The notes beneath the pieces are model-generated. The model saw only the letters and a list, made by a program, of their open reading frames with translations. It did not search any database and had not been told where the DNA came from. Positions 3,801-61,636 of a stretch of 64,000 nucleotides of DNA are shown one piece after another. A program made the position numbers and the translations under genes. How positions within the stretch are numbered: the first letter of the stretch is position 1; the number at the start of each line of letters is the position of its first letter. The stretch is from Pristiophorus japonicus (taxonomy: Eukaryota): assembly GCF_044704955.1 (NCBI RefSeq), contig NC_091982.1, positions 256,432,001-256,496,000 of the forward strand, written 5' to 3'.

Positions 3801-4180
3801 AACATTCCTCTCAACTCTATGGCATGGATTTGCTCTCATTCTTGACTCTATAGGATGACTATCACTCCCTTGTCTGCAGGATGCCTTCTCTCCCTATTCT
3901 CCGTGAAGTGGTTTACCTCTCTCTCTTATCATGGGGTGAGATTCCCTCCCACCTCTGTGATCTCTGCAGAATGACTTATCTTTGTGTACCTAATGTCTTG
4001 CCCACCACAAGTCCCTCTCCACAATGTCCTGCGAGTCTATTTTACCCTTCTTCCTGAGCATAACAGCTTGTTGTCTCACCCTCCCAAGTTTTGTCTTTAT
4101 TTTCTTTTGGGACAATCGCCCCTTTCTGCGATGCTCAGTCTCTCCCTCTCTCCACTGTCTGATGAGCGTGGGGTTTGTGA

Positions 4181-5465: not shown

Positions 5466-5558
5466 CTCCCTTCCCTTGCTTTGTGTTTGATGCTGGGGGT
5501 GCAGGTGCAGGGGCAGGGGCAGGGGCAGGGCCCGGCCGCCCCGGGCTCGCATACTCAC

Positions 5559-5719
5559 AGGATGCCGCTGCAGGAGGTGCAGACGAAGGAGCCGATGGTC
5601 ATGTTGGCGTAGGTCGGGCCTCGCTGGTCGCAGTCGAAGCATTTCCTGTTGTGCAGGAGCGTTGTCATGTCCCGCAGCAGCTTCAGGTGCTTCTCCTCCT
5701 GCCTGCGCTTGGCCGCCAT
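5559..5719 (-). CDS. AGFG1: ArfGAP with FG repeats 1, coding exon 1; the rest of the gene lies beyond the window start
   Basis: MAAKRRQEEKHLKLLRDMT...CFDCDQRGPTYANMTIGSFVCTSCSGIL, an ArfGAP C4 zinc finger. ccATGG start context and CT|GTGAGT donor (phase 2). Confidence 0.93.
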
Positions 5720-5900
5720 GGAGACAGGCATCGAGCAGCCGGCCAGAGCGGACACAGCGGCGCAGCGAGGGCTGGGGAGGGACTAAGGGGCGGGCACACC
5801 CCCAACCGGAACACCGCACACCACTTCCGGCATACTGACACCCAGGGGGAGGGATTACAGGCGGACCCCAAGGCATGGAGACCCAGTGAGGGGCTGTGTG
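5720..5900 (-). promoter_or_regulatory. AGFG1 GC-rich promoter/5'UTR
   Basis: CpG-rich, with a GC box GGGGCGGG at about 5787 and ETS-like CCGGAA (about 5806) and ACTTCCGG (5823-5830). Confidence 0.6.
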
Positions 5901-5944: not shown

Positions 5945-6430
5945 TCGCAGGCAGTCCCTTGGAGTGCAGGAAGACTTGCTTCCACTCTAAAAGTGAGTTC
6001 TCAGGTGACTGAACAGTCCAATACGGGAATTACAGTCTCTGTCACAGGTGGGGCAGACTGTGGTTGAAGGAAAGGGTGGGTGGGGTGCCTGGGTTTGCCG
6101 CACGCTCCTTCCGCTGTCCGCGCTTGCTTTCCGCACGCTCCCGGCGACGAGACTCGAGGTGCTCCGCGCCCTCCCCGATGCTCTTCCCTCCATTTTCGGC
6201 GGCCGAGGGCCAGGGATTCCCAGGTGCCTGTGGGGGATGTTGCGCTTTATCCAGGAGGCTTTGACGGTGTCCTCGAAGCGTTTCCTCCGCCCACCTGCTG
6301 CTCGCTCGCCGTGTCGGAGCTCCGCGTAGAGCGCTTGCTTGGGGAGTCTCGTGTCGGGCATGCGGTATGATGTGGCCCGCCCAGCGGAGCTGATCGAGCG
6401 TGGTCAATGCTTTGACGCTGGGGATGTTAA
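5945..6430 (-). mobile_element. RTE-clade LINE 3' fragment
   Basis: QLRWAGH..PDTRLPKQALY..CPTCDRDCNSRIGLFSHLRTH, the C-terminal C2H2-like motif. Confidence 0.9.
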
Positions 6431-6589: not shown

Positions 6590-7110
6590 GGTACAGTAGC
6601 ATAGTGGCTATATTACTGGACGAGTAAACCAGAGGCAAGGACTAATGATCCAGAGACAAGAGTTCATAATCCCACCACGGCAGCTGGAGAATTTAAATTC
6701 AGTTAACTAAATAAATCTGGAGGAAAAGACTAATATCAGTAATGGTTACCATGAAAACTACCAGACTGTCGTATAACCCCGTCTGGTTCACTAATGTCCT
6801 TTAAAAGAAAGAAAGACTTGCATTTATATAATGCCTTTCACTGGATGTCTCAAAGCGCTTTACAGTCAATGAAGTATTTTTTGAAGTGCAGTCACCGTTG
6901 TAATGTAGGAATTTAGGGAAGGGAATCTGGCATCCTTAACCGATCTGGCCTATATGTGACTCCAGACTCACAGCAAATGTGGTTGACTCTTAACTGCCTT
7001 CTGAGATGGCATAGTAAGCCACTCACCACCACCTTCTCGAGGGCAAGTAGGGATAGGCAATAAATACTGGCCTTGCCAGCAACACCCACATCCCATGAAC
7101 GAATTTAAAA
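6590..7110 (+). mobile_element. tRNA-derived SINE with a nested antisense SINE/L2 tail fragment (about 6805-6910)
   Basis: A-box-like TAGCATAGTGG and B-box-like GAGTTCATAATCC; ends in an A-run. Confidence 0.55.
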
Positions 7111-7249: not shown

Positions 7250-9608
7250 ATAGAAACATAGAAAATAGGTGCAGGAGCAGGCCATTCAGCCCTTCTAGCC
7301 TGCACCGCCATTCAATGAGTTCATGGCTGAACATGAAACTTCAGTACCCCCTTCCTGCTTTCACGCCATACCCCTTGATCCCCCGAGTAGTAAGGACTTC
7401 ATCTAACTCCCTTTTGAATATATTTAGTGAATTGGCCTCAACTACTTTCTGTGGTAGAGAATTCCACAGGTTCACCACTCTCTGGGTGAAGAAGTTTCTC
7501 CTTATCTCGGTCCTAAATGGCTTACCCCTTATCCTTAGACTGTGACCCCTGGTTCTGGACTTCCCCAACATTGGGAACATTCTTCCTGCATCCAACCTGT
7601 CCAAACCCGTCAGAATTTTAAACGTTTCTATGAGGTTCCCTCTCACTCTTCTGAACTCCAGTGAATACAAGCCCAGTTGATCCAGTCTTTCTTGAAAGGT
7701 CAGTCCCACCATCCCGGGAATCAGTCTGGTGAATCTTCGCTGCACTCCCTCAATAGCAAGAATGTCCTTCCTCAAGTTAGGAGACCAAAACTGTACACAA
7801 TACTCCAGGTGTGGCCTCACCAAGGCCCTGTACAACTGTAGCAACACCTCCCTGCCCCTGTACTCAAATCCCCTCGCTATGAAGGCCAACATGCCATTTG
7901 CTTTCTTAACCGCCTGCTGTACCTGCATGCCAACCTTCAATGACTGATGTACCATGACACCCAGGTCTCATTGCACCTCCCCTTTTCCTAATCTGTCACC
8001 ATTCAGATAATAGTCTGTCTCTCTGTTTTTACCACCAAAGTGGATAACCTCACATTTATCCACATTATACTTCATCTGCCACGCATTTGCCCACTCACCT
8101 AACCTATCCAAGTCACTCTGCAGCCTCATAGCATCCTCCTCGCAGCTCATACTGCCACCCAACTTAGTGTCATCCGCAAATTTGGAGATACTACATTTAA
8201 TCCCCTCGTCTAAATCATTAATGTACAATGTAAACAACTGTGGCCCCAGCACAGAACCCTGCGGTACCCCACTAGTCACTGCCTGCCATTCGGAAAAGTA
8301 CCCATTTACTCCTACTCTTTGCTTCCTGTCTGACAACCAGTTCTCAATCCACGTCAGCACACTACCCTCAATCCCATGTGCTTTAACTTTGCACATTAAT
8401 CTCCTGTGTGGGACCTTGTCGAAAGCCTTCTGAAAGTCCAAATATACCACATCAACTGGTACTCCTTTGTCCACTTTATTGGAAACATCCTCAAAAAATT
8501 CCAGAAGATTTGTCAAGCATGATCTCCCTTTCACAAATCCATGCTGACTTGGACCTATGATGTCACCATTTTCCAAATGCGCTGCTATGACATCCTTAAT
8601 AATTGATTCCATCATTTTACCCACTACTGAGATCAGGCTGACCGGTCTATAATTCCCTGCTTTCTCTCTCCCTCCTTTTTTAAAAAGTGGGGTTACATTG
8701 GCTACCCTCCACTCGATAGGAACTGATCCAGAGTCAATGGAATGTTGGAAAATGACTGTCAATGCATCCGCTATTTCCAAGGCCATCTCCTTAAGTACTC
8801 TGGGATGCAGTCCATCAGGCCCTGGGGATTTATCGGCCTTCAATCCCATCAATTTCCCCAACACAATTTCCCGACTAATAAAGATTTCCCTCAGTTCCTC
8901 CTCCTTACTAGACCCTCTGACCACTTTTATATCCGGAAGGTTGTTTGTGTCCTCCTTAGTGAATACTGAACCAAAGTCCTTGTTCAATTGGTCTGCCATT
9001 TCTTTGTTCCCCGTTATGACTTCCCCTGATTCTGACTGCAGGGGACCTACGTTTGTCTTTACTAACCTTTTTCTCTTTACATACCTATAGAAACTTTTGC
9101 AATCCGCCTTAATGTTCCCTGCAAGCTTCTTCTCGTACTCCATTTTCCCTGCCCTAATCAAACCCTTTGTCCTCCTCTGCTGAGTTCTAAATTTCTCCCA
9201 GTCCCCAGGTTCGCTGCTATTTCTGGCCAATTTGTATGCCATTTCCTTGGCTTTAATACTATCCCTGATTTCCCTTGATAGCCACGGTTGAGCCACCTTC
9301 CCTTTTTTATTTTTACGCCAGACAGGAATGTACAATTGTTGTAATTCATCCATGCGGTCTCTAAATGTCTGCCATTGCCCATCCACAGTCAACCCCTTAA
9401 GTATCATTAGCCAATCTATCTTAGCCAATTCATGCCTCATACCTTCAAAGTTACCCTTCTTTAAGTTCTGGACCATGGTCTCTGAATTAACTGTTTCATT
9501 CTCCATCCTAATGCAGAATTCCACCATATTATGGTCACTCTTCCCCAAGGGGCCTCGCACAATGAGATTGCTAATTAATCCTCTCTCATTACACAACACC
9601 CAGTCTAA
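7250..9608 (-). mobile_element. Young 5'-truncated CR1 LINE (family A, TTTCTATG tail)
   Basis: RT motifs QGSVLGP and FADD in ORFs 7968-9611 and 7341-7955, split by one stop codon. Confidence 0.95.
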
Positions 9609-10309: not shown

Positions 10310-13300
10310 CTTTCCTGCTGGAAACTAGCAACTGGAAACATTGTAACAACTGGAGGCTGTAACAGATGGAAACATTGAAACAACTGGAGACACTGAAACA
10401 CTGGGCAACATTGTAACATGTGAGTGATCACAGTATGGTTGAATTTGTAATACAGATTGAGGGTGAGGAAGTAGTGTCTCAAACGAGCGTACTATGCTTA
10501 AACAAAGGGGACTATAGTGGGATGAGGGCAGAGTTGGCTAAAGTAGACTGGAAACACAGGCTAAACGGTGGCACAATTGAGGAACAGTGGAGGACTTTTA
10601 AGGAGCTCTCTCATAGTGCTCAACAAAAATATATTCCAGTGAAAAACAAGGGCGGTAAGAGAAGAGATAACCAGCCGTGGATAACCAAGGAAATAAAGGA
10701 GAGTATCAAATTAAAAACCAATGTGTATAAGGTGGCCAAGGTTAGTGGGAAACTAGAAGATTGGGAAAATTTTAAACGACAGCAAAGAATGACTAAGAAA
10801 GCAATAAAGAAAGGAAAGATAGATTACGAAAGTAAACTTGCGCAAAACATAAAAACAGATAGTAAAAGCTTTTACCGATATATAAAACGGAAAAGAGTGA
10901 CTAAAGTAAATGTTGGTCCCTTAGAAGATGAGAAGGGGGATTTAATAATGGGAAATGTGGAAATGGCTGAGACCTTAAACAATTATTTTGCTTCGGTCTT
11001 CACAGTGGAAGACACAAAAACCATGCCAAAAATTGCTGGTCACGGGAATGTGGGAAGGGAGGACCTTGAGATAATCATTATCACTAGGGAGGTCGTGCTG
11101 GACAGGCTAATGGGACTCAAGGTAGACAAGTCCCCTGGTCCTGATGAAATGCATCCCAGGGTATTAAAAGAGATGGCGGAAGTTATAGCAGATGCATTCG
11201 TTATAATCTACCAAAATTCTCTGGACTCTGGAGAGGTACCAGCGGATTGGAAAGCAGCTAATGTAATGCCTCTGTTTAAAAAAGGGGGCAGGTAACTATA
11301 GGCCGGTTAGTTTAACATCTGTAGTGGGGAAAATGCTTGAAGCTATCATTAAGGAAGAAATAGCGGGACACCTAGATAGGAATAGTGCAATCAAGCAGAC
11401 CACAACATGGATTCATGAAGGGGAAATTATGTTTAACTAATTTACTGGAATTCTTTGAGGATATAACGAGGATGGTGGATAAAGGTGTACCGATGGATGT
11501 GGTGTATTTAGATTTCGATAAGGTGCCACACAAAAGGTTACTGCAGAAGATAAAGGTACGTGGATGCAGAGGAAATGTATTAGCATGGATAGAGAATTGG
11601 CTGGCTAACAGAAAGCAGAGAGTCGGGATAAATGGGTCCTTTTCGGGTTGGAAATCAGTGGTTAGTGGTGTGCCACAGGGATCGGTGCTGGGACCACAAC
11701 TGTTTACAATATACATAGATGACCTGGAAGAGGGGACAGAGTGTAGTGTAACAAAATTTGCAGATGACACAAAGATTAATGGGAAAGTGGGTTGTGTAGA
11801 GGACACAGAGAGGCTGCAAAGAGATTTAGATAGGTTAAGCGAATGGGCTAAGGTTTGGCAGATGGAATACAATGTCGGAAAATGTGAGGTCATCCACCTT
11901 GGAAAAAAAAAACAGTAAAAGGGAATATTATTTGAATGGGGAGAAATTACAACATGCTGCGGTGCAGAGGGACCTGGGGGTCCTTGTGCTTGAATCCCAA
12001 AAAGTTAGTTTGCAGGTGCAGCAGGTAATCAGGAAGGCGAATGGAATGTTGGCTTTCATTGTGAGAGGGATGGAGTACAAAAGCAGGGAGGTCCTGCTGC
12101 AACTGTACAGGGTATTGGTGAGGCCGCACCTGGAGTACTGCGTGCAGTTTTGGTCACCTTACTTAAGGAAGGATATACTAGCTTTGGAGGGGGTACAGAG
12201 ATGATTCACTAGGATGATTCCAGAGATGAGGGGGTTACCTTTGATGATAGATTGAGTAGACTGGGTTTTTACTCGTTGGAGTTCAGAAGGATGAGGGGTG
12301 ATCTTATATAAACATTTAAAATAATGAAAGGGATAGACAAGATAGAGGCAGAGAGGTTGTTTCCACTGGTCGGGGAGACTAGAACTAGGGGGCACAGCCT
12401 CAAAATACGGGGGAGCCAATTTAAAACCAAGTTGAGAAGGAATTTCTTCTCCCAGAGGCTTGTGAATCTGTGGAATTCTCTGCCCAAGGAAGCAGTTGAG
12501 GCTAACTCATTGAATGTATTCAAATTACAGATAGATAGATTTTTAACCAATAAGGGAATTAAGGGTTATTAGGAGCGGGCGGGTAAGTGGAGCTGAGTCC
12601 ACGGCCAGATCAGCCATGATCTTGTTGAAAGGCGGAGCAGGCTCGAGGGGCTAGATGGCCTACTCCTGTTCCTAATTCTTATGTTCTTATGTTCTAACAA
12701 CTTAAAACTAGCAATTGGAAACATTGAAACAACTGGAGACGCTGAAACAATGGGTAACATTGTAACAACTTAAAACTAGCAATTGGAAACATTGAAACAA
12801 CTGGAAACAGTAACCACTGGAAACATTGCAACAGCTTGAAACTGTAGCAACTGGAACCATTGTAACTGAAAGATGTAACGGCTGGAAATATTGAAACAGC
12901 TGGAAACACTGAAATAGCTGGAAACATTGTGACAACTGGAAGTTGTAACAACTGGATACTGTAACAACTGGAAACTTACAACCGAAAAGATTGTAATAGC
13001 TGGAAACATTGTAACAACTGGAAACTAAAACAGCTGGAAACTCACAACTGGAAAAATTGAAACAGCTGGAAACTGTAGCAACTGGAAACTAGCGACTGGA
13101 AACATTGTAACAACTGAAAGCTGTAACAATTGGAGACATTGCAACAGCTGGAAATGTTGTAACAGCTGGAAACTAACAACTGGAAACATTTTAACAGCTG
13201 GAAACATTGTAACAGCTGGAAACTAACAACTGGAAACATTGTAGCAACTAGAAACTAGCAACTGGAAACATTGAAACAGGTGGAAAATTGTAACAGCTGG

Positions 13301-16385: not shown

Positions 16386-17889
16386 TCAGGATCTTTGCAC
16401 AACTAGATTCACCATTTGCAGGATCAGGTTCAGCTGGTGTCTCCTGATTATCAAAAGCTGTGCAGCATGCAGCACACCACAACTAATTCGGAGACCTGTT
16501 GAGGGGAATATTGAAGGCTGCCTCCAGAGTGGTCCAGGCATCGGAAACGTTGCTTGAGTACCCCAAGTGTCTGTTCGATGATGTTCAATGGCTGCATGGC
16601 TGTCATTATAGCGCTGTGGTGGGGTTTCGGAGGAGGGAGGGGGGAGGTCATGAGCCAGGTGGCCAAGCTGTAACCTTTGTCCTTGATCAGCCAGCCCTGC
16701 CCTTAGTCGCTGAAACATTTGTGGCACACTTCTCTCACGCAAGATGAGAGCAGAGTGTGCACTGCCTGGATAGTGGGCATTGACTGTGAGGATGCATTGC
16801 GTGTGGTTGCAGACCAGCTGGATGTTTAGGGAGTGGTAACCCGTTTGGTTTCTGAACACCTCTGCATTGTATAATGGTGCTCGCAAGGCGACGTGTGTGC
16901 AGTCAATGGCTCCTTGAACCTTCGGAAAGCCTGCAATTCTTCCAAATCCTGAAGCCCTCTCATTCTGGATGTCCCTGCTCATTGGGAACTTTATGAAATT
17001 CATTCTGCAGGTGTACAGTTCCCTTGTAACTTGGCGAACGCAGCTATGTGCAACGTGTTGAGTATATTGCATATGTCCCCTGCTGCTGCCTGGAAGGAGC
17101 CAGAAGCCTAGAAGGCCAGCGCTGCAGTCACCTTCACCTTGATGGGCAGTGCAGCCCTGTTGGCGCTGGTAGGCTGTAGGTCTGCCTGTAGGAGCTGGCA
17201 TATCTCTGTTAGCACTTCTTTTCAGAAGCACAGCCTTCTAACGTACTGCGCCTCAGAGGGATGGCGGTATGAGCGATGTTCCCTGTAAACCCACGGGAGA
17301 TAAGGCATCCTCCCCACACGTCTTCGAATCCGTGGCCCAACATGGCCGAGAACCCTTCTTCCCCTGCTTGAAGCCGCCTGCCAATAGCTACCAGCATGAT
17401 ACACTAGCAAACTAGTACTGCCCCCATTGAAATCTCTCAGTGGCCTTGCAAGCAAAGTGTCACGGCACATAACGGTGCCGTTTGCAACTCGGAGCCTCAT
17501 GCAGTGTGCTGCGTGCAACCGTAGCAGTCACTGACAACTGCGATATAAAATCCTCCAGCCTTCGTTTAAATATGCTGCCAATAGCATCTGCTGCACCCTG
17601 GGACTGCCTGGTTTTTTCAGGCGTTTCCTGGGGCGGATGTTAAATGAGGTGTTACGGCCGAAAGTTTCATCCGGAGCACTAGTGCAACCTTGCACGACGA
17701 TTGACATCATCATCATGCTAAAAACAGAGTGGGGGTGGGGGTATAATACGTTTTTGCACTGGCACTAATCAGTAGCCGATTCTACCGGCCGGGCGGTAAA
17801 TCCTGGATGCCCGACGTTACGCTCAAAAACAGCATTTAACACCCCATGGGGGCACTAACCGAGGTACAAATGAGCCGAAAATCCAGCCC
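16386..17889 (-). mobile_element. Decayed PIF/Harbinger transposon (HARBI1-like DDE transposase, frameshifted)
   Basis: GFPKVQGAIDCTHV, YHSLNIQLVC, YPGSAH and IEQTLGVLKQRFRCL motifs. Terminal GGGCTGGATTTT at 17889. Confidence 0.85.
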
Positions 17890-36146: not shown

Positions 36147-36364
36147 ATCTCAGCCTTGAACATACTCAATGATTCAGCATCCACAGCCCTATGGGTAGAG
36201 CATTCCAAAGATACACAACCCTCTGAGTGAGTAAAATTCCTCCTCATCTCAGTCTTAAATGGCTGACCCCTTATCCGGAGACTGTTCCCCCTAGATCTAG
36301 ACTCATTGAAACATACAAGATTCTGAGGGAGATTGACAGGGTAGATGCGGAGTGGTTGAAAGAG

Positions 36365-39300
36365 CTTTGCAATCTGTTAATAAAGGATGATATCAGGGCA
36401 GTTGTGAGAGACGATATTGGCTCTAATGAACAAAATGTTGAATCATTGTGGGTGGAGATTAGAGATAGTAAGGGGAAAAAGTCACTGGTGGGCGTAGTTT
36501 ATAGGCCCCCAAATAATAACTTCACGGTGGGGCGGACAATAATCAAGGGAATAATGGAGGCATGTGAAAAAGGAACGGCAGTAATCATGGGGGATTTTAA
36601 CCTACATATCGATTGGTCAAATCAAATCGCACGGGGTAGCCTGGAGGAGGAATTCATAGAATGCATACGGGATTGTTTCTTAGAACAGTATGTTACAGAA
36701 CCTACAAGGGAGCAAGCTATCTTAAATCTGGTCCTGTGTAATGAGACAGGAATAATAAACGATCTCCTCGTAAAAGATCCTCTCGGAATGAGTGATCACA
36801 GTATGGTTGAATTTGTAATACAGATTGAGGGCGAGGAAGTAGTGTCTCAAACGAGCATACTATGCTTAAACAAAGGGGACTACAGTGGGATGAGGGCAGA
36901 GTTGGCTAAAGTAGACTGGAAACACAGACTAAACGGTGGCACAATTGAGGAACAGTGGAGGACTTTTAAGGAGCTCTTTCATAGTGCTCAACAAAAATAT
37001 ATTCCAATGAAAAAGAAGGGCGGTAAGAGAACGGATAACCAGCCGTGGATAATCAAGGAAATAAAGGAGAGTATCAAATTAAAAACCAATGCTTATAAGG
37101 TGGCCAAGGTTAGTGGGAAAATAGAAGATTGGGAAAATTTTAAACGACAGCAAAGAATGACTAAGAAAGCAATAAAGAAAGGAAAGATAGATTATGAAGG
37201 TAAACTTGCGCAAAACATAAAAACGGATAGTAAAAGCTTTTACAGATATATAAAACGGAAAAGAGTGACTAAAGTAAATGTAGGTCCCTTAGAAGATGAG
37301 AAGGGGGATTTAATAATGGGAAATGTGGAAATGGCTGAGACCTTAAACAATTATTTTGCTTCGGTCTTCACAATGGAAGACACAAAAACCATGCCAAAAA
37401 TTGCTGGTCACAGGAATGTGGGAAGGGAGGACCTTGAGACAATCACTATCACTAGGGGGGTAGTGCTGGACAGGCTAATGGGACTCAAGGTAGACAAGTC
37501 CCCTGGTCCTGATGAAATGCATCCCAGGGTATTAAAAGAGATGGCGGAAGTTATAGCAGATGCATTCGTTATAATCTACCAAAATTCTCTGGACTCTGGG
37601 GAGGAACCAGTGGATTGGAAAGTAGCTAATGTAATGCCTCTGTTTAAAAAAGGGGGCAGACAAAAGGCAGGTAACTATAGGCTGGTTAGTTTAACATCTG
37701 TAGTGGGGAAAATGCTTGAAACTATCATTAAGGAAGAAATAGCGGGACATCTAGATAGGAATAGTGCAATCAAGCAGACGCAGCATGGATTCGTGAAGGG
37801 GAAATCATGTTTAACTAATTTACTGGAATTCTTTGAGGATATAACGAGCATGGTGGATAGAGGTGTACCGATGGATGTAGTGTATTTAGATTTTCAAAAG
37901 GCATTCGATAAAGTGCCACTCAAAAGGTTACTGCAGAAGATAAAGGTACGCGGAGTCAGAGGAAATGTATTAGCATGGATAGAGAATTGGCTGGCTAACA
38001 GAAAGCAGTGAGTCGGGATAAATGGGTCCTTTTCGGGTTGGAAATCGGTGGTTAGTGGTGTGCCACAGGGATCGGTGCTGGGACCACAACTGTTTACATA
38101 GATGACCTGGAAGAAGGGACAGAGTGTAGTGTAACAAAATTTGCAGATGACACAAAGATTAGTGGGAAAGCAGGTTGTGTAGACGACACAGACAGGCTGC
38201 AAAGAGATTTAGATAGGTTAAGCGAATGGGCTAAGGTTTGGCAGATGGAATACAATGTCGGAAAGTGTGAGGTCATCCACCTTGGAAAAAAAACAGTTAA
38301 AGGGAATATTATTTGAATGGGGAGAAATTACAACATGCTGCGGTGCAGAGGGACCTGGGGGTCCTTGTGCATGAAACTCTTTTGGAGTAAACAACAAAAA
38401 CATTAAACCGTGCCCCCCGATCTGGGGGAACACCAACATTTACAAGGCCCTTTTTTTATTTTTTTATTTATTATATTTTTTGGGGGTTTTTTTGGGCACT
38501 CAAATAATATTATTTTTCCTAAGTGCCCCCTATAAAAGGGGAGGGGGACACTAAAAGCACCGGCAATTAAAACAAATTAACTTAAAAACATAAAATCAAA
38601 TTAAAATTTGGTTGCCGGGCGTGATGATGCACTCCAGTTCCTTGTGCATGAAACTCTTTTAGAGTCTACCTACAAAACATAAAACATTAAACCGTGCCAC
38701 CCGACATGGGTGACACACCAGACATTTATAAGGCCCTTTTTTTCCTTTTTTTTTTGTGTTTTTCTTTTTTTGGGGGGGTTTTTTTGGGCGCTAAAATCAA
38801 ATTTTTTCCAGTGCCCCCTATAAAAGGGAAGGGGGACACTAAAAGCACCGGCAATTAAAACAAATTAAACTTTAAAACGTAAAATCAAATTAAAATTTGG
38901 TTGCCGGGCGTGATGATGCACTCCAGTCCCTCCGGTGCCCACCTCTCGCGGAAGGCCGCGAGCGTACCGGTGGACACCGCGTGCTCCATCTCCAAGGACA
39001 CCCTGGACCGGATGTAAGAGCGGAAGAGAGGCAGGCAGTCAGGTCGAACGACCCCCTCGATCGCCCGCTGCCTGGACCGGCTGATGGCACCCTTGGCCGT
39101 GCCCAGGAGCAGTCCTACGAGGAGGCCTTCGGACTCCTTGTGCATGGAACTCTTTTTGGAGTTTATCTGCAAAAACAAAAAACATTAAACCGTGCCACCC
39201 TACCTGGGTGACACACCAGACATTTACAAGGCCCTTTTTTTTCCTTTTTTTGTTTTTTTTTGTGTTTTTCTTTTTTTTTGGGCACTAAAATCACAATTTT

Positions 39301-40335
39301 TCCCCAGTGCCCCCTATAAAAGGGAAGGGGGACACTAAAAGCACCGGCAATTAAAACAAATTAAACTTTAAAACGTAAAATCAAATTAAAATTTGGTTGC
39401 CGGGCGTGATGATGCACTTCAGTCCCTCCGGTGCCCACCTCTCGCGGAAGGCCGCGAGCGTACCGGTGGACACCGCGTGCTCCATCTCCAAGGACACCCT
39501 GGACCGGATGTAAGAGCGGAAGAGAGGCAGGCAGTCAGGTTGAACGACCCCCTCGACCGCCCGCTGCCTGGACCGGCTGATGGCACCCTTGGCCGTGCCC
39601 AGGAGCAGTCCTACGAGGAGGCCTTCGGACTCCTTGTGCATGAATCCCAAAAAGTTAGTTTGCAGGTAATCAGGAAGGCGAATGGAATGTTGGCCTTCAT
39701 TGCGAGAGGTATGGAGTACAAAAGCAGGGAGGTCCTGCTGCAACTGTACAGGGTATTGGTGAGGCCGCACCTGGAGTACTGTGTGCAGTTTTGGTCACCT
39801 TACTTAAGGAAGGATATACTAGCTTTGGAGGGGGTACAGAGACGATTCACTAGGTTGATTCCGGAGATGAGGGGGTTACCTTATGATGATAGATTGAGTA
39901 GACTGGGTCTTTACTCGTTGGAGTTCAGAAGGATGAGGCGTGATCTTATAGAAACATTTAAAATAATGAAAGGGATAGACAAGATAGAGGCAGAGAGGTT
40001 GTTTCCACTGGTCGGGGAGACTAGAACTAGGGGGCACAGCCTCAAAATACGGGGGAGCCAATTTAAAACCGAGTTGAGAAGGAATTTCTTCTCCCAGAGG
40101 GTTGTGAATCTGTGGAATTCTCTGCCCAAGGAAGCAGTTGAGGCTAGCTCATTGAATGTATTCAAATCACAGATAGATAGATTTTTAACCAATAAGGAAA
40201 TTAAGGGTTACGGGGAGCGGGCAGGTAAGTGGAGCTGAGTCCACGGCCAGATCAGCCATGATCTTGTTGAATGGTGGAACAGGCTCGAGGGGCTAGATGG
40301 CCCAATCCTGTTCCTAATTCTTATGTTCTTATGTT
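36365..40335 (+). mobile_element. CR1 LINE family B (part of the endonuclease plus RT), interrupted at 38376-39630
   Basis: YRPP, MGDFN and SDH endonuclease motifs, RT motifs, TTCTTATG tail. Confidence 0.95.
38376..39630 (-). mobile_element. Three tandem 5'-truncated 3' ends of a Tx1-like non-LTR retrotransposon (38376-38638, 38653-39134, 39149-39630)
   Basis: ORF2 C-terminus LLVGLLLGTAKGAI..R..FRSYIRSRVSLEMEHA..FRERW is typical of the Tx1/L1 group. Each unit is bounded by TCCTTGTGCATGRA. Confidence 0.8.
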
Positions 40336-40518
40336 AGTCCAAATCCCCTGTTCTTTGCACATAGCCCTGCAATTTTTTTCCTTTTCAAATATATATCTAA
40401 TTTCCTTTTGAAAGTTACTATTGAATCTGCTTCCACCACCCCTTTCAGGCCGTGCATTCCAAATGACAACTTACAGCTGAAAAAAATGTTTTCTCATCTC
40501 CCTTCTGGTTCCTTCGCC

Positions 40519-42098
40519 AGGGCCTGATGGACTGCATCCCAGAGTACTTAAGGAGGTGGCCTTGGAAATAGCAGATGCATTGACAGTCATTTTCCAACAT
40601 TCCATTGACTCTGGATCAGTTCCTATCGAGTGGAGGGTAGCCAATGTAACCCCACTTTTTAAAAAAGGAGGGAGAGAGAAAGCAGGGAATTATAGACCGG
40701 TCAGCCTGACCTCAGTAGTGGGTAAAATGATGGAATCAATTATTAAGGATGTCATAGCAGTGCATTTGGAAAATGGTGACATGATAGGTCCAAGTCAGCA
40801 TGGATTTGTGAAAGGGAGATCATGCTTGACAAATCTTCTGGAATTTTTTGAGGATGTTTCCAATAAAGTGGACAAAGGAGTACCAGTTGATGTGGTATAT
40901 TTGGACTTTCAGAAGGCTTTCGACAAGATCCCACACAGGAGATTAATGTGCAAAGTTAAAGCACATGGGATTGGGGGTAGTGTGCTGACGTGGATTGAGA
41001 ACTGGTTGTCAGACAGGAAGCAAAGAGTAGGAGTAAATGGATACTTTTCGGAATGGCAGGCAGTGACTAGTGGGGTACCGCAGGGTTCTGTGCTGGGGCC
41101 CCAGCTGTTTACATTGTACATTAATGATTTAGACGAGGGGATTAAATGTAGTATCTCCAAATTTGCGGATGACACTAAGTTGGGTGGCAGTGTGAGCTGC
41201 GAGGAGGATGCTATGAGGCTACAGAGTGACTTGGATAGGTTAGGTGAGTGGGCAAATGCGTGGCAGATGAAGTATAATGTGGATAAATGTGAGGTTATCC
41301 ACTTTGGTGGTAAAAACAGAGAGACAGACTATTATCTGAATGGTGACAGATTAGGAAAAGGGAAGGTGCAACGAGACCTGGGTGTCATGGTACATCAGTC
41401 ATTGAAGGTTGGCATGCAGGTACAGCAGGCGGTTAAGAAAGCAAATGGCATGTTGGCCTTCATAGCGAGGGGATTTGAGTACAGGGGCAGGGAGGTGTTG
41501 CTACAGTTGTACAGGGCCTTGGTGAGGCCACACCTGGAGTATTGTGTACAGTTTTGGTCTCCTAACTTGAGGAAGGACATTCTTGCTATTGAGGGAGTGC
41601 AGCGAAGATTCACCAGACTGATTCCCGGGATGGTGGGACTGACCTATCAAGAAAGACTGGATCAACTGGGCTTGTATTCACTGGAGTTCAGAAGAGTGAG
41701 AGGGGACCTCATAGAAACGTTTAAAATTCTGACGGGTTTGGACAGGTTGGATGCAGGAAGAATGTTCCCAATGTTGGGGAAGTCCAGAACCAGGGGTCAC
41801 AGTCTAAGGATAAGGGGTAAGCCATTTAGGACCGAGATAAGGAGAAACTTCTTCACCCAGAGAGTGGTGAACCTGTGGAATTCTCTACCACAGGAAGTAG
41901 TTAAGGCCAATTCACTAAATATATTCAAAAGGGAGTTAGATGAAGTCCTTACTACTCGGGGGATCAAGGGGTATGGCGTGAAAGCAGGAAGTGGGTACTG
42001 AAGTTTCATGTTCAGCCATGAACTCATTGAATGGCGGTGCAGGCTAGAAGGGCTGAATGGCCTGCTTCTGCACCTATTTTTTATGTTTCTATGTTTCT
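40519..42098 (+). mobile_element. Young CR1 family A with an open RT ORF (40556-42001), 5'-truncated
   Basis: 481-aa uninterrupted ORF2 fragment and TTTCTATG tail. Confidence 0.95.
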
Positions 42099-48829: not shown

Positions 48830-49968
48830 CTGTGCAAAATCAAAGCACATGGTATTGGGGGTAATGTACTGACGTGGATAGAGAACTGGTTGGCAGACAG
48901 GAAGCAGAGAGTCGGGATAAACGGGTCCTTTTCAGAATGGCAGGCAGTGACTAGTGGAGTGCCGCAGGGCTCAGTGCTGGGACCCCAGCTCTGTACAATA
49001 TACATCAATGATTTAGATGATGGAATTGAGTGTAATATCTCCAAGTTTGCAGATGACACTAAACTGGGTGGCGGTGTGAGCTGTGAGGAGGACGCTAAGA
49101 GGCTGCAGGGTGACTTGGACAGGTTAGGTGAGTGGGCAAATGCATGGCAGATGCAGTATAATGTGAATAAATGTGAGGTTATCCACTTTGGGGGGCAAAA
49201 ACACGAAGGCAGAATATTATCTGAATGGTGACCGGTTAGGAAAAGGGGAGGTGCAGCGAGACCTGGGTGTCATGGTACATCAGTCATTGAAAGTTGGCAT
49301 GCAGGTACAGCAGACGGTGAAGAAGGCAAATGGTATGTTGGCCTTCATAGCAAGGTGATTTGAGTATAGGAGCAAGGAAGTCTTACTGCAGTTGTACAGG
49401 GCCTTGGTGAGGCCCCACCTGGAATATTGTGTTCAGTTTTTGTCTCCTAATCTGAGGAAGGACGTTCTTGCTATTGAGGTAGTGCAGCGAAGGTTCACCA
49501 GACTGATTCCAGGGATGGCTGGACTGACATATGAGGAGAGATGGATCAACTGGGCCTTTATACACTGGAGTTTAGAAGGATGTGGGGGGAACTCATAGAA
49601 ACGTATAAGATTCTGACGGGACTGGACAGGTTAGATGCGGGAAGAATGTTCCCGATGTTGGGGAAGTCTAGAACCAGGGGACACAGTCTTAGGATAAGGG
49701 GCAGGCCATTTAGGACTGAGATGAGGAGAAACTAATTCACTGAGTTGTCAACCTGTGGAATTCCCTACCGCAGAGAGTTGTTGATGCCAGTTCATTTGAT
49801 ATATTCAAGAGGGCGTTAGATATGGTCCTTACAGCTGAAGGGATCAAGGGGTATGGAGAAAAAGCAGGAAAGGGTACTGAAGGAATGATCAGCCATGATT
49901 TTATTGAATGGTGGTGCAGGCTCGAAGGGCTGAATGGCCTACTCCTGCACCTATTTTCTATGTTTCCA
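48830..49968 (+). mobile_element. CR1 fragment inserted in a palindromic-repeat arm
   Basis: QGSVLGP and FADD motifs; TTTCTATG tail. Confidence 0.9.
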
Positions 49969-49989: not shown

Positions 49990-52420
49990 GGCCCTGAAAT
50001 TACGGCCTCTCCGGGTGCGTACGATGTGCGCACACATGTGAAGAGGCCTCACAAGTTCAGGGTTTAGATGCGCGAAGCACATGTGCCTGAACCCGGCACA
50101 TGCAATCTGTTAAAATGTCTTTTGATAGATCGCAATCATCCCCGGGAAAAACACATTCGAGAGCAGATATTAGGCTATTTGTCCAACTCTTGCCCGGCGA
50201 ATGTACTTCAAAATCTTACGCCTGGTAAGGCCTGCTTTTACCAGCGGAAGAGTTTTAATAGATAGAAAAAATAAATGTTATTAATTTTATATTAAAAACC
50301 CTGTCTATGAAGGTAAGTTTATTTTTAACACTATTAAAACATTTTTTTAATTCAAAAAAATTAAATTTTTCTCTAAAACATTTAATTTAAAGCAATTTCC
50401 ATTAATTTTTTTAAAAGTGATGTTTTTTAAATTTATGTTTGTGTTTTATTTGATTTTAGGAGTATTCTACATAAGAACATAAGAAATAGGAGTAGGCCAT
50501 TTGGCCCATCGAGCTTGCTCCACCATTCAATATGATCATGGCTGATCTGATCTTGGCCTCAACTCCACTTTCCTGCCCACTCCCCATAACCCTTGACTCC
50601 TTTATCATTCAAAATCTGTCTATCTCCACCTTAAATATATTCAATGACCCAGCCTCCACAGCTCTCTGGGGATAGAGAATGCCACAGATTCACAACCCTC
50701 TGAGAGAAATAATTCCTTCTCATCTCCATTTTAAATGGGCGACCCCTTATTCTGAAACTATGCCCCCTAGTTCTAGATTCCCCCACAAGGGGAAACATCC
50801 TCTCTGCATCTACCCTGTCCAGCCCCCTCATAATCTTACAAGTTTCAATAAGATCACCTCTCATTCTTCTAAACACCAATGCGTATAGGCTCAACCTTTC
50901 TTCATAAGACAACCCCTTCATCTCAGGAATCAACCCCGTGAACATTCTCTGAACTGCCTCCAAAGCAAGTATATCCCTCCTTAAAGAAGGAGACCAAAAC
51001 TGTATGCAGTACTCCAGGTGTGGTCTCACCAATGCCCTGTACAGTTATGTGTGTCTACTGTATATGGTCCACATTTCTGAGCCATACAGGAGGGCGGGTA
51101 TCACTACAGCCCTGTAGACCATAAGCTTGGTGCCAGATTTGAGGGCCTGATCTTCGAACACTCTCTTCCTCAGGCGGCTGAAGGCTGCACTGGCGCACTG
51201 GAGGCGGTGTTGAACCTCGATGACTGCCCTTACTGATAATAGACTCCTGAGGTATGGAAAGTGGTCCATGTTGACCAAGGCCGCGCCGTGGATCAAGATC
51301 CTGCAAATCCCCTGGGAGGACAGACGCACCAACTTTAGTGTCCTCGATCAGGTCAATATCCCCAGCATCGAAGCACTGACCACACTCGACCAGCTCCGTT
51401 GGGCGGGCCACATTGTTCGCATGCCTGACACAAGACTCCCAAAGCAAGCGCTCTACTCGGAACTCCCACACGACAAGCGAGCCCCAGGTGGGCAGAGGAA
51501 ACGTTTCAAGGACACCCTCAAAGCCTCCTTGATAAAATGCAACATCCCATCGACACCTGGGAGTCCCTGGCCAAAGACCGCCCTAAGTGGAGGAAGAGCA
51601 TCCGGGAGGGCGCTGAGCACCTTGCGTCTCATCGCCGAGAGCAAGCAGAAAGCAAGCGCAGGCAGCGGAAGGAGCGTGCAGCAAATCAAGACTCCCCACC
51701 CATTCTTTCCTTCAATGACAATCTGTCCCACCTGTGACAGAGACTATAATTCCCGTATTGGACTGTTCAGTCACCCAAGAACTCACTTTTAGAGTGGAAG
51801 CAAGTCTTCCTCGATTTCGAGGGACTGCTTATGATGATGATGATGTACAATTGTAGCAGGACTTCCCTGCTTTTATACTCTATTCCCCTTGCAATAAAGG
51901 CCAACATTCCATTTGCCTTCCTGATTACTTGCTGTACCTGCATGCTACCTTTTTGTGTTTCGTGCACAAGGACCCCCAGATCCCTCTGTACCGCAGCATT
52001 TTGTAATCTTTCTCCATTGAAATAATAATTTGATTTTTTATTTTCTCTACCAAAGTGGATAACCTCACATTTTCCCACATTATACTCCTTCTGCCAAATA
52101 TTTACCCACTCATTTAGCCTATCTATATCCATTTGCAGATTATTTGTGTGTTAGTTTGCCAACCTGAAAATGACCCATTTATCCCAATGCTCATAGCTCC
52201 CGTTACTATTAATCAGAATAGTACGTTGTGATTGGCGGTCCAGGCCCATGTGATCCCAGGATGCGCAGACACTCCTGGAATACGTGAGCCTCTGCGCAGG
52301 GCTGGGGCTGTGCCTCTAGGTCTCAGAGCGCAAGTGTTCATTCCTCTTGGACCACCAAGTGCTTTCGTAAAAACAGTTTTTCGGTCGGGCTCATCCACCC
52401 ATGACCGCAATCTTTGGCCC
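49990..52420. mobile_element. Harbinger-like MITE hosting a CR1 (about 50470-52185, -), which itself hosts an RTE
   Basis: Imperfect TIRs ggccctgaaatt/aatctttggccc; flanks aat/aac; homologous to 23411-23945. Confidence 0.7.
51047..51843 (+). mobile_element. RTE LINE with an inverted 5' segment (about 51047-51294)
   Basis: Antisense DHFPYL..LLYGSEMWTIYSRH followed by sense KILQIPW..RTHF and an (ATG)n tail; TSD tgtacaRtt. Confidence 0.88.
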
Positions 52421-55745: not shown

Positions 55746-57052
55746 AGAAACATAGAAAATAGGTGCAGGAGTAGGCCATTCGGCCCTTCGAGCCTGCACC
55801 GCCATTCAATGAGTTCATGGCTGAACATGCAACTTCAGTACCCCATTCCTGCTTTCTCGCCATACCCCTTGATCCCCCTAGTAGTAAGGACTACATCTAA
55901 CTCTTTTTTGAATATATTTAGTGAATTGGCCTCAACAACTTTCTTAGTAGAGAATTCCACAGGTTCACCACTCTCTGGGTGAAGAAGTTTCTCCTCATCT
56001 CGGTCATAAATTGCTTACCCCTTATCCTTAGACTGTGACCCCTGGTTTTGGACTTCCCCAACATTGGGAACATTCTTCCTACATCTAACCTGAATAAACC
56101 CGTCAGAATTTTAAACGTTTCCATGAGATCCCCTCTCATACTTCTGAATTCCAGTGAATACAAGCCCAGTTGATCCAGTCTTTCTTGATATGTCAGTTCC
56201 GCCATCTCAGGAATCAGTCTGGTGAACCTTCGCTGCACTCCCTCAGTAGCAAGAATGTCCTTCCTCAAGTTAGGAGACCAAAACTGTACACAATACTCCA
56301 GGTGTGGCCTCACCAAGGCCCTGTACAACTGTAGTAACACCTCCCTGCCCCTGTACTCAAATCCCCTCGCTATGAAGGCCAACATGCCATTTGCTTTCTT
56401 AACCGCCTGCTGTACCTGTATGCCAACCTTCAATGACTGATATACCATGACACCCAGGTCTCGTTGCACCTCCCCTTTTCCTAATCTGTCACCATTCAGA
56501 TAATAGTCTGTCTCTCTGTTTTTACCACCAAAGTGGATAACCTCACATTTATCCACATTATACTTCATCTGCCATGCATTTGCCCACTCACCTAACCTAT
56601 CCAAGTCACTCTGCAGCCTCATAGCATCCTCCTCGCAGCTCACATTGCCACCCAATTTTGTGTCATCCGCAAATTTGGAGATACTATATTTAATCCCCTC
56701 GTCTAAATCATTAATGTACAATGTAAACAGCTGGGGCCCCAGCACAGAACCTTGCGGTACCCCACTAGTCACTGCCTGCCATTCTGACAAGTACCCATTT
56801 ATTCCTACTCTTTGCTTCCTGTCTGACAACCAGTTCTCAATCCACGTCAGCACACTACCCCCAATCCCATGTGCTTTAACTTTGCACATTAATCTCTTGT
56901 GTGGGACCTTGTCGAAAGCCTTCTGAAAGTCCAAATACACCACATCAACTGGTTCCTCCTTGTCCACTCTACTGGAAACATCCTCAAAAAATTCCAGAAG
57001 ATTGTCAAGCATGATTTCCCTTTCACAAATCCATGCTGACTTGGACCTATCA
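55746..57052 (-). mobile_element. CR1 family A nested antisense inside another CR1
   Basis: RT ORF; the host CR1 resumes at about 57054. Confidence 0.92.
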
Positions 57053-59294: not shown

Positions 59295-61636
59295 ATCTTA
59301 GACTGGGTGTTGTGTAATGAGAGGGGATTAATTAGCAATCTCGTTGTGCGAGTCCCCTTGGGGAAGAGTGATCATATTATGGTGGAATTCTGCATTAGGA
59401 TGGAGAATGAAACAGTTAATTCAGAGACCATGGTCCAGAACTTAAAGAAGGGTAACTTTGAAGGTATGAGGTGTGAATTGGCTAGGATAGATTGGCGAAT
59501 GATACTTAAGGGGTTGACTGTGGATGGGCAATGGCAGACATTTAGAGACCACATGGATGAACTACAACAATTGTACATTCCTGTCTGGCGTAAAAATAAA
59601 AAAGGGAAGATGGCTCAACCGTGGCTATCAAGGGAAATCAGGGATAGTATTAAAGCCAAGGAAGTGGCATACAAATTGGCCAGAAATAGCAGCGAACCCG
59701 GGGACTGGGAGAAATGTAGAACTCAGCAGAGGAGGACCATGGGTTTGATTAGGGCAGGGAAAATGGAGTACGAGAAGAAGCTTGCAGGGAACATTAAGAC
59801 GGATTGCAAAAGTTTCTATAGATATGTAAAGAGAAAAAGGTTAGTAAAGACAAACGTAGGTCCCCTGCAGTCAGAATCAGGGGAAGTCATAACGGGGAAC
59901 AAAGAAATGGCAGACCAATTGAACAAGTACTTTGGTTCGGTATTCACTAAGGAGGACACAAACAACTTTCCGGATATAAAAGGGGTCAGAGGGTCTAGTA
60001 AGGAGGAGGAACTGAGGGAAATCCTTATTAGTCGGGAAATTGATGGGATTGAAGGCCGATAAATCCCATGGGCCTGATGGACTGCATCCCAGAGTACTTA
60101 AGGAGGTGGCCTTGGAAATAGCGGATGCATTGACAGTCATTTTCCAACATTCCATTGACTCTGGATCAGTTCCTATCGAGTGGAGGGTAGCCAATGTAAC
60201 CCCACTTTTTAAAAAATGGAGAGAAAACAGGTAATTATAGACCGGTCAGCCTGACCTCAGTAGTGGGTAAAATGATGGAATCAATTATTAAGGATGTCAT
60301 AGCAGCACATTTGGAAAGAGGTGACATGATAGGTCCAAGTCAGCATGGATTTGTGAAAGGGAAATCATGCTTGACAAATCTTCTAGAATTTTTTGAGGAT
60401 GTTTCCAGTAGTGGACAAGGGAGAACCAGTTGATGTGGTATATTTGGACTTTGAGGGCTTTCGACAAGGTCCCACACAAGAGATTAATGTGCAAAGTTAA
60501 AGCACATGGGATTGGGGGTAGTGTGCTGACGTGGATTGAGAACTGGTTGTCAGACAGGAAGCAAAGAGTAGGAATAAATGGGTACTTTTCAGAATGGCAG
60601 GCAGTGACTAGTGGGATACCGCAAGGTTCTGTGCTGGGGCCTCAGCTGTTTACACTGTACATTAATGATTTAGACGAGGGAATTAAATGTCGTATCTCCA
60701 AATTTGCCGATGACACTAAGTTGGGTGGCAGTGTGAGCTGCGAGGAGGATGCTATGAGACTGCAGAGTGACTTGGATAGGTTAGGTGAGTGGGCAAATGC
60801 ATGGCAGATGAAGTATAATGTGGATAAATGTGAGGTTATCCACTTTGATGATAAAAACAGAGACAGACTATTATCTGAATGGTGACAGATTAGGAAAAGG
60901 AGGTGCAACGAGACCTGGGTGTCATGGTACATCAGTCATTGAAGGTTGGCATGCAGGTTCAGCAGGCGGTTAAGAAAGCAAATGGCATGTTGGCCTTCAT
61001 AGCGAGGGGATTTGAGTACAGGGGCAGGGAGGTGTTGCTACAGTTGTACAAGGCCTTGGTGAGGCCACATCTGGAGTATTGTGTACAGTTTTGGTCTCCT
61101 AACCTGAGGAAGGACATTCTTGCTATTGAGGGAGTGCAGCGAAGGTTCACCAGACTGATTCCTGGGATGGCGGGACTGACCTATCAAGAAAGACTGGATC
61201 AACTGGGCTTGTATTCACTGGAGTTCAGAAGTATGAGAGGGGACCTCATAGAAACGTTTAAAATTCTGACAGGTTTAGACAGGTTGGATGCAGGAAGAAT
61301 GTTCCCAATGTTGGGGAAGTCCAGAACCAGGGGTCACAGTCTAAGGATAAGGGGTAAGCCATTTAGGACCGAGATGAGGAGAAACTTCTTCACCCAGAGA
61401 GTGGTGAACCTGTGGAATTCTCTACCACAGAAAGTAGTTGAGGCCAATTCACTAAATATATTCAAAAGGGAGTTAGATGAGGTCCTTACTACTAGGGGGA
61501 TCAAGGGGTATGGCGAGAAAGCAGGAAGGGGGTACTGAATTTGCATGTTCAGCCATGAACTCATTGAATGGCGGTGCAGGCTAGAAGGGCCGAATGGCCT
61601 ACTCCTGCACCTATTTTCTAGGTTTCTATGTTTCTA
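59295..61636 (+). mobile_element. CR1 family A, 5'-truncated and frameshifted
   Basis: ORFs 59307-60062, 60430-60885 and 60903-61538; TTTCTATG tail. Confidence 0.95.

What the first reader, a model, noticed from the sequence alone, without database searches (positions are those of the whole stretch)
38362..39644. Tx1-like retrotransposon that appears to target a specific site inside a CR1 LINE: three stacked insertions
Seen: the CR1 ORF2 is broken at TCCTTGTGCATGAA. This 14-mer occurs four times (38362, 38639, 39135 with one mismatch, 39631), separating three antisense units that all end at the same 3' nucleotide (..AAAAGAGT, no long poly-A). The units differ clearly in their 3'UTRs, and unit A has a different 5' truncation, which argues for repeated independent insertion into the regenerated target. 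Two other CR1 copies are empty at this site and both carry a mismatch in it (11981-11994 TCCTTGTGCTTGAA; 51959-51972 TCCTTGTGCACGAA). Known: Tx1-clade elements are sequence-specific (U2 genes, 5S rDNA, tRNA arrays, microsatellites, the Xenopus Tx1D transposon). Inference: a hyperparasite that uses an abundant CR1 RT coding sequence as its landing site and disables it. I do not know of this target being described.
Basis: partly seen in the sequence, partly recalled or inferred. Interest (0 to 1): 0.85.

Follow-up and report, generated by a model that had tools for sequence, protein, structure and literature searches.

The report
LINE homing into another LINE's gene
A Tx1-type jumping gene sits thousands of times, always backwards, at one 14-base spot inside the reverse-transcriptase gene of another common jumping gene (a CR1-type LINE) and piles up there in stacks, and new copies likely take their front end from the neighbour already in the stack.

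Summary
Confirmed and extended. The three units are 5'-truncated copies of a 7.2-kb Tx1-clade LINE (ORF2 50% identical to Xenopus Tx1L) inserted antisense at one site in a CR1-type LINE's DLGVLVHE|S codons, with a 14-bp target-site duplication. Genome-wide: 14,553 exact junctions, 6,844 abutting CR1, 21,695 exact empty sites. 61 of 68 copies chosen without regard to flanks are on target. Off-target copies make their own TTC-starting duplications, so the 14-mer is target, not element tail. A, B and C fall in different subfamilies, so this is no local duplication. New: 23 of 31 adjacent truncated pairs share a 5' breakpoint (0.6% across loci) while their 3'UTRs differ like random copies; shared private mutations cluster at the 5' end. 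Newcomers probably insert at the upstream duplicate and finish by copying the resident's 5' end. 'Disables CR1' is not shown: host copies are about three times older than the invader. Tx1 targeting of other transposons and R1-style stacking are published. A CR1 coding target and breakpoint inheritance were not found in my searches (Repbase unsearchable). The scan noted Tx1 stacks at other targets in other genomes.

The parts
36332..38361 (+). Host CR1-type LINE, 5' part of ORF2 (5'-truncated; endonuclease, RT; own stop at 38009-38011 and frameshift near 38094). Left end approximate.
   Evidence: Pfam Exo_endo_phos_2 and RVT_1; 94.7% to the copy at 10421-12693; ORF list
38362..38375 (+). Target 14-mer, original copy (codons V-L-V-H-E after the DLG motif); its 3' end is the inferred priming end
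38376..38638 (-). Unit A: short 5'-truncated copy, short-tail subfamily (highest private-mutation rate); inferred first insertion
38639..38652 (+). Target-site duplicate between A and B
38653..39134 (-). Unit B: starts at position 6702 of the full-length copy in L031, GGTAGACTC-type 3' end; inferred second insertion
39135..39148 (+). Target-site duplicate between B and C (one substitution)
39149..39630 (-). Unit C: same 5' breakpoint as B, different 3'UTR subfamily; last 81 codons of ORF2 (39387-39629) then 3'UTR; inferred newest
39631..39644 (+). Outermost target-site duplicate; the only one still followed by the CR1 flank TCCC, hence the inferred live target
39645..40335 (+). Host LINE 3' part: end of ORF2 (SQKVSLQV...), 3'UTR and short TTCTTATG-type tail. 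Right end approximate.

Best explanation
A young Tx1-clade LINE (7.2 kb, two ORFs) is inserted antisense at one site in a CR1-type LINE's RT gene with a 14-bp duplication; it likely nicks the CR1 sense strand at GTGCATGAA|TCCC by target-primed reverse transcription, likely re-inserts at the upstream duplicate, and likely often completes the newcomer's 5' end by copying the resident neighbour's DNA. Steps: (1) Shown: fixed 3' junction, about 14-bp duplication on and off target, one orientation, intact ORF1/ORF2 copies. (2) Inferred: the apurinic-type endonuclease nicks after GAA; the freed 3' end primes cDNA on an RNA ending in a short hairpin (AACTC..AAAA..GAGT) without poly-A; the second cut falls 14 nt away. 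(3) Inferred: after insertion only the upstream duplicate keeps the preferred flank (A just before TTC on the element strand), so stacks grow mostly at their 5' side; here A, then B, then C. (4) Inferred: the growing cDNA meets the homologous 5' end of the resident copy just beyond the nick, anneals or switches to it, and inherits its 5' breakpoint. The result is a chimera: 5' part from local DNA, 3' part from the new RNA. Biologically this is best read as use of an abundant, conserved, mostly dead repeat as a safe harbour.
For: Junction counts 14,553 / 6,844 / 21,695, with reversed-pattern controls 0. 61 of 68 flank-blind copies on target, 59 of 66 after collapsing one segmental duplication. 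Off-target copies have their own 12-16 bp duplications starting TTC or TTA. Insertions as short as 12 nt lie between perfect duplicates (L059, L072). ORF2 is 50% identical to Tx1L over 1,297 aa. Same breakpoint in 23 of 31 adjacent truncated pairs (17 of 22 loci) against 12 of 1,943 cross-locus pairs. UTR differences in such pairs are 9-24, against a median of 17 for random copies. Shared private alleles: 25 in 30.6 kb against 20 in 611 kb for controls, median relative position 0.16 against 0.54 for subfamily differences, p=3e-7. Polarity: 4,119 full-length heads follow another element, only 442 follow CR1; upstream-most units carry 14 private alleles in 8.7 kb against 29 in 8.9 kb for 3'-most units, p=0.03; L042's upstream unit duplicates a base of the downstream unit's head. 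A second CR1 family with the same 14-mer but a T before it has 8,788 empty sites yet 1 of 50 occupied loci. The same polarity is proposed for R1 arrays (PMC2718515).
Against: No biochemistry: nick site, second cut and template switch are read from junctions only. L104 fits insertion at the downstream duplicate better (inner and 3' duplicates share a variant that the 5' one lacks). In one array a full-length unit is followed by a truncated one (arr29.6). Per-pair age tests alone are not significant (13 vs 6 pairs; 7 vs 3, p=0.34). Pairs within one array are not independent, and loci were partly chosen by likeness to unit C. Some array members are plain DNA duplicates (0-8 differences over 6.9 kb in arr9.7 and arr10.6). 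Segmental duplications near the start of C1 inflate raw counts. About 10% of copies are off target.
Confidence: 0.72

Rival explanations
1. Site-specific insertion is right, but shared breakpoints arise in two steps: a unit is first duplicated at the DNA level (unequal exchange or slippage), then its 3' end is overwritten by gene conversion or by an abortive priming event from another subfamily.
For: It gives the same chimeric pattern. Near-identical neighbours exist in long arrays. 3'-end modules look mosaic across subfamilies.
Against: A single unit offers only 14 bp of direct repeat for the first duplication. All 22 same-breakpoint pairs with both 3' ends in view had 9 or more UTR differences, so the unconverted intermediate is missing among truncated pairs.
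Confidence: 0.17
2. Stacks move as read-through dimer transcripts from existing arrays, so truncated-then-full-length pairs are single insertions.
For: 90% of full-length heads lie behind another element, so read-through RNA is plausible, and it would give truncated-upstream, full-downstream pairs (9 vs 0).
Against: Where the local CR1 site carries a variant, the inner duplicates carry the same local variant (L042, L048, L103, L104). It does not explain identical locus-specific breakpoints in neighbours.
Confidence: 0.06
3. No real targeting: one insertion in a CR1 master copy, or local duplications, were amplified passively with CR1 or with segmental duplications.
For: Three groups of identical insertions near the start of C1 (9 + 3 loci) are segmental duplicates.
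Against: 63 distinct truncation points, each between duplicates at the same site. Several CR1 subfamilies are hit, including one only 65-69% identical (L033). A, B and C sit in separate subfamily clades. The invader is younger than its hosts.
Confidence: 0.02
4. A true antagonist that evolved to inactivate a competing, active CR1 family and drove its decline.
For: About 24% of perfect sites are occupied, and the site lies in a motif conserved across the host's relatives (DLGV/I in most of 51 rows), so escape is constrained.
Against: Host copies are about three times more diverged than the invader. The window's host has other lesions. 76% of perfect sites are untouched. Activity of the CR1 family was not measured.
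Confidence: 0.12

Closest known systems
Tx1L of Xenopus laevis (ORF2 UniProt P14381), which inserts in the piggyBac-type Tx1D
   Same: ORF2 50% identical over 1,297 aa, 55% over residues 1-900. Same endonuclease-RT-zinc-finger layout. Targets another transposon (PMC4494074, Introduction). Its endonuclease nicks almost only its target (PMC1950540, passages).
   Different: The target here is the RT coding sequence of a LINE, not a DNA transposon. The specificity loop between the anchoring T and S is three residues shorter here (TWVRPGVGWS vs TYVRVRDGHVSQS).
Crocodilian Tx1-Mar, Tx1-8_Crp, Tx1-4_AMi, Tx1-9_AMi and SINEU-3 (PMC4494074)
   Same: Tx1 families preferring other transposons (Mariner-N4_AMi, LTR elements, Harbinger), often antisense; tandem copies sandwiching a duplication; TTC-containing targets recur in the clade (AGGTTCCCATCAGCAT, TTCC/TTTC, TC/TTC repeats).
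   Different: No LINE target is named in the main text (supplements not readable). No snRNA-derived head here (Rfam). This family is young (1.6% pairwise) with intact copies, versus 85-87% identity to consensus.
Drosophila R1 tandem arrays in 28S rDNA (PMC2718515)
   Same: 14-bp duplication between tandem copies; growth proposed by insertion into the duplicate at the 5' end of the resident; microhomology at truncated 5' junctions.
   Different: R1 clade and an rDNA target. The passages I read do not describe neighbours sharing a truncation point or chimeric units.
L1/L1 chimeras formed when nascent cDNA anneals to a resident L1 (Gilbert et al. 2005; recalled, paper not held) and cDNA strand invasion at R2 5' junctions (PMC6895275, passages)
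   Same: cDNA completes integration by pairing with homologous chromosomal DNA near the nick.
   Different: There it is an occasional outcome or uses target sequence. Here it appears to be the majority outcome in stacks (23 of 31 pairs) because targeting places each newcomer next to a homologous copy.

Membership tests
Tx1 clade non-LTR retrotransposon | ORF2 with apurinic-type endonuclease, RT and C-terminal zinc finger | tested here: met
   Exo_endo_phos 6-227, RVT_1 512-761, zf-RVT 1137-1180 (below cut-off) in a natural 1,299-aa ORF
Tx1 clade non-LTR retrotransposon | Upstream gag-like ORF1 with zinc knuckle | tested here: met
   698-aa ORF1; weak zf-CCHC match at 200-215, E=0.004, below cut-off
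Tx1 clade non-LTR retrotransposon | RT groups with Tx1L | tested here: met
   Best named full-length hit is Tx1L, 55% over 100% of residues 1-900. In the tree of 35 rows (34 plus a CR1 outgroup, from 88 eligible) the nearest row is Tx1L, then turtle proteins, apart from the 26-row, mostly fish clade (96/99); its own branch is unresolved. Keno, Dewa, Kibi, Koshi and Tx1-Mar were not identifiable among the rows.
Tx1 clade non-LTR retrotransposon | Target preference (Kojima's criterion: one repeat type in over 20% of flanks) | tested here: met
   61 of 68 flank-blind copies at the same base
Tx1 clade non-LTR retrotransposon | Endonuclease itself nicks the target | not testable with these tools
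   needs in vitro nicking
Tx1-Mar group | Inserted in Mariner-N4_AMi or related; some with U1/U2 head | tested here: not met
   Flanks are a LINE ORF2; no Rfam match near threshold in a full-length copy
Keno / Kibi / Koshi / Dewa | Target is U2 snRNA gene, TC/TTC microsatellite or tRNA array spacer (Dewa recalled) | tested here: not met
   Flanks read are CR1 or another copy of the element
CR1 clade (host) | ORF2 with endonuclease and RT related to vertebrate CR1; short tandem 3' tail | tested here: inconclusive
   Domains met; tail seen in the sequence; named hits include two bird proteins, consistent with CR1, but no reference CR1/L2 tree could be built. CR1-group elements fill 22-34% of shark and ray genomes (PMC13343379, passage).
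A family already catalogued in Repbase/Dfam | Entry with this sequence and target | not testable with these tools
   no such library is offered

The most novel reading that the evidence does not exclude
A LINE that has specialised on the conserved DLGV coding motif of another LINE clade's reverse transcriptase, occupies about a quarter of that family's perfect sites, and has turned them into breeding arrays. About 90% of its at least 4,500 full-length heads sit behind a sibling, and each new insertion recombines a new RNA-derived 3' end with the resident's 5' end. Stacking would then act as a built-in recombination and full-length-rescue system for the element, and a natural record of how LINE 5' junctions are completed.
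Probability: 0.55. Interest if true: 0.72.

Novelty: new variant of a known kind. Interest (0 to 1): 0.6.

Why it matters
It adds a LINE's own coding sequence to the known target classes of Tx1 elements, in a young family with intact ORFs and a sharp 14-bp site, which makes it a usable model for how apurinic-type endonucleases gain specificity. The stacks bear on an open question, how second-strand priming and the 5' junction of LINEs are made: thousands of natural events suggest homology to an adjacent copy usually wins over microhomology. If all heads mark full copies the family is about 30 Mb, so it also contributes to genome size.

Tried and rejected
Local tandem duplication of A, B, C: rejected. 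The 14-mer as the element's own tail: rejected by off-target duplications. Mismatch protection of the two empty copies: not supported. snRNA-derived head: none. Whole 3'UTR fold is no better than shuffles (z=-0.10); two local hairpins recur in the commonest 3' ends, without a formal covariation test. Runs of two other organisms hold pieces of both host and invader, but no listed contig bridges the junction by 31 letters on each side: no verdict. Expression: no RNA holder listed. A direct genome-wide on-target fraction by one long pattern could not be run, so a 68-copy sample was used. Literature: nine searches that ran found no CR1-targeting Tx1 and no breakpoint inheritance; the library lacks most subscription papers, including the Tx1L endonuclease paper and Gilbert 2005, and the supplements of PMC4494074, which list Tx1 targets, could not be read. 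Sequence and place look-ups in earlier findings were empty.

Full report
Observation. The 14-mer TCCTTGTGCATGAA stands at 38362, 38639, 39135 (one mismatch) and 39631 and separates minus-strand units A (263 bp), B and C (482 bp each), all ending in AAAAGAGT. The flanks are two halves of one LINE ORF2. The break falls between codons E and S of DLGVLVHE|SQKV; DLG(V/I) is present in most of the 51 relatives of the host that aligned there. The window lies in a 5.9-Gb genome rich in such LINEs; that it is a shark-like genome is my inference.

The element. Unit C found 1,071 candidates, of which 40 were scored and 30 fetched. Extending 18 loci gave full-length copies of about 7.2 kb between 14-bp duplicates. 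Natural intact copies encode a 698-aa ORF1 and a 1,299-aa ORF2 with endonuclease, RT and a weak zinc-finger match. Of 21 full-length units parsed, 9 have an open ORF2 and 6, all in one array, have both ORFs. ORF2 is 50% identical to Xenopus Tx1L over 1,297 aa; Tx1L is the best named full-length hit and the nearest row in an RT tree of 35 rows. There is no snRNA-derived head.

Targeting. Among the 30 best copies, 22 abut the 14-mer within two mismatches and one more sits at the same CR1 position in a deleted variant. For a flank-blind sample I took the first 68 of 3,230 matches to a 3'UTR motif: 21 coincide by coordinate with exact junctions listed, and 40 of the other 47, fetched and read, are within two mismatches. 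That is 61 of 68, or 59 of 66 after collapsing a segmental duplication. Exact genome counts are 14,553 element-target junctions, 6,844 of them continuing into CR1, and 21,695 empty 28-bp sites: roughly 24% occupancy and 2.1 copies per occupied site. These ratios use exact patterns of different lengths and include segmental duplicates, so they are approximate. Off-target copies carry their own 12-16 bp duplications that start TTC or TTA (none found for L135), so the 14-mer belongs to the target. Insertions of only 12 nt between perfect duplicates fix the priming point. Specificity extends past the 14-mer: a second CR1 family with the same 14-mer but GTGT instead of GGGA before it has 8,788 empty exact sites but 1 of 50 occupied loci (about 24% expected, p=2e-5). 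Age or chromatin differences between the families could contribute. A third CR1 family common in the window has 4-6 mismatches and was empty in all such rows.

Independence of A, B and C. In a tree of 128 3' ends the three units fall in different subfamilies: C is 1 substitution from copies elsewhere but 10 from B and 17 from A; A's clade of 10 (support 0.99) holds neither sibling.

Shared breakpoints. B and C start at the same base, and this is general. Of 57 adjacent pairs with both 5' junctions visible, 31 have two truncated units and 23 of these (17 of 22 loci) share the breakpoint within 3 bp, against 12 of 1,943 cross-locus pairs (L048 was dropped by the junction filter because its site is a variant). 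Their 3'UTRs differ by 9-24 substitutions, like random copies (median 17). Alleles found only at that locus are shared at 25 in 30.6 kb (controls 20 in 611 kb) and cluster at the 5' end (median relative position 0.16 against 0.54 for subfamily differences, p=3e-7); subfamily differences are halved in the first 200 bp. Single pairs show clear switch points, for example L034 (shared private alleles up to offset 1,132, first subfamily difference at 1,165) and the first pair of arr9.7 (3,169 and 3,963). In the window B and C differ at only three private sites in the 248-bp coding part and at 13 in the UTR, which fits but does not by itself prove a chimera. The units are therefore mostly chimeras of local DNA and a new source.

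Polarity. The element's own 3' end puts a T before the duplicate, like the rarely hit family, whereas the upstream duplicate keeps the CR1 flank. This predicts growth at the 5' side. In agreement: 4,119 full-length heads follow another element and 442 follow the main CR1 flank; of 51 clusters among the first 100 listed, 13 have a CR1-flanked full head nearby; truncated-then-full pairs number 9 against 0 (with ascertainment bias and one exception outside the filter); upstream-most units carry half the private alleles of 3'-most units (p=0.03 pooled, not significant by pair); the oldest-looking subfamily (type A, 8 private alleles per kb) is 3'-most in both mixed stacks where it was scored; L042's upstream unit duplicates a base from the head of the downstream one. 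Against: L104 fits the other polarity. The likely order in the window is A, B, C.

Mechanism. Shown: site, orientation, duplication length, stacking, chimeric neighbours. Inferred from established target-primed reverse transcription: nick on the CR1 sense strand after GAA, priming on an RNA without poly-A, second cut 14 nt away, and completion by annealing or switching to the resident's homologous 5' end. Microhomology to the GGA end of the duplicate is visible at many first-insertion junctions.

Effect on CR1. An insertion here would break any intact ORF2, but the occupied hosts differ by a median 4.6% pairwise (53 loci) against 1.6% for the invader (70 loci), and the window's host has other lesions. 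Safe-harbour use is better supported than antagonism.

What is known. PMC4494074 (main text parts 1-4 of 5 read; supplements unavailable) lists Tx1 targets: Tx1D, U2, microsatellites, Mariner, LTR elements, Harbinger, and tandem SINEU-3 copies around a duplication. PMC2718515 (passages) describes R1 arrays separated by 14-bp duplicates and growing at the 5' duplicate. PMC1950540, PMC6895275, PMC4640811, PMC13343379, PMC3747384, PMC5753468, PMC8869645, PMC10760644 and 10.1101/2024.12.14.628481 were seen as passages only. Gilbert 2005 is recalled. Nine searches found neither a CR1 target nor breakpoint inheritance; Repbase and Dfam could not be searched. Earlier notes of this scan describe Tx1 stacks at other targets in other genomes; none matched this sequence or genome.

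Verdict. Real, genome-wide and well supported. It is a member of the Tx1 clade that works like Tx1L and stacks like R1, with an apparently undescribed kind of target and an apparently undescribed regular inheritance of 5' ends. New variant of a known kind; interest 0.6.

Noticed in passing
window about 5560-5720 (-): First coding exon of an ArfGAP gene (MAAKRRQEEKHLKLLRDM...CFDCDQRGPTYANMTIGSFVCTSCSGIL, then a GT donor). The name AGFG1/AGFG2 is recalled. A GC-rich minisatellite lies at about 4000-5500. The stack is about 33 kb upstream.
   Followed up: partly
window 16386-17237 (-): Fragment of a Harbinger/PIF-type DDE transposase (Pfam DDE_Tnp_4, E=7e-9).
   Followed up: partly
window 7255-9116, 40514-42095, 48860-49964, 55749-57038, 59790-61632: A more abundant CR1-type family about 70% identical to the host, with 4-6 mismatches at the target position and no insertion there.
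   Followed up: partly
L049/L055/L058, L050/L054/L057/L063, L051/L052/L053/L056/L062 (G000:C1, first 3.3 Mb): Segmental duplications, 93-99.9% identical across 3-kb loci, that copy single insertions several times.
   Followed up: yes
G000:C1:9710119-9772000; also near 141.78-141.82 Mb and 144.999-145.05 Mb: Arrays of 7-9 mostly full-length copies inside one CR1 site; the first mixes four 3' subfamilies and holds six copies with both ORFs open.
   Followed up: partly
5' heads of full-length copies (L031-L043, arrays): All start at CCAAT, often with one extra G or A after the duplicate; an extra G may record a capped transcript (inference, untested).
   Followed up: no
proteins P0013 cluster (403 members, sea turtles): A young, abundant turtle Tx1 family 64% identical in RT and sister to Tx1L; its target is unknown and worth checking.
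   Followed up: no
element positions 6237-6243 (L030, L048, L129, L132), 6888-6890, 4526 (L127, L129): A few 5' breakpoints recur at unrelated loci, perhaps microhomology hot spots.
   Followed up: no
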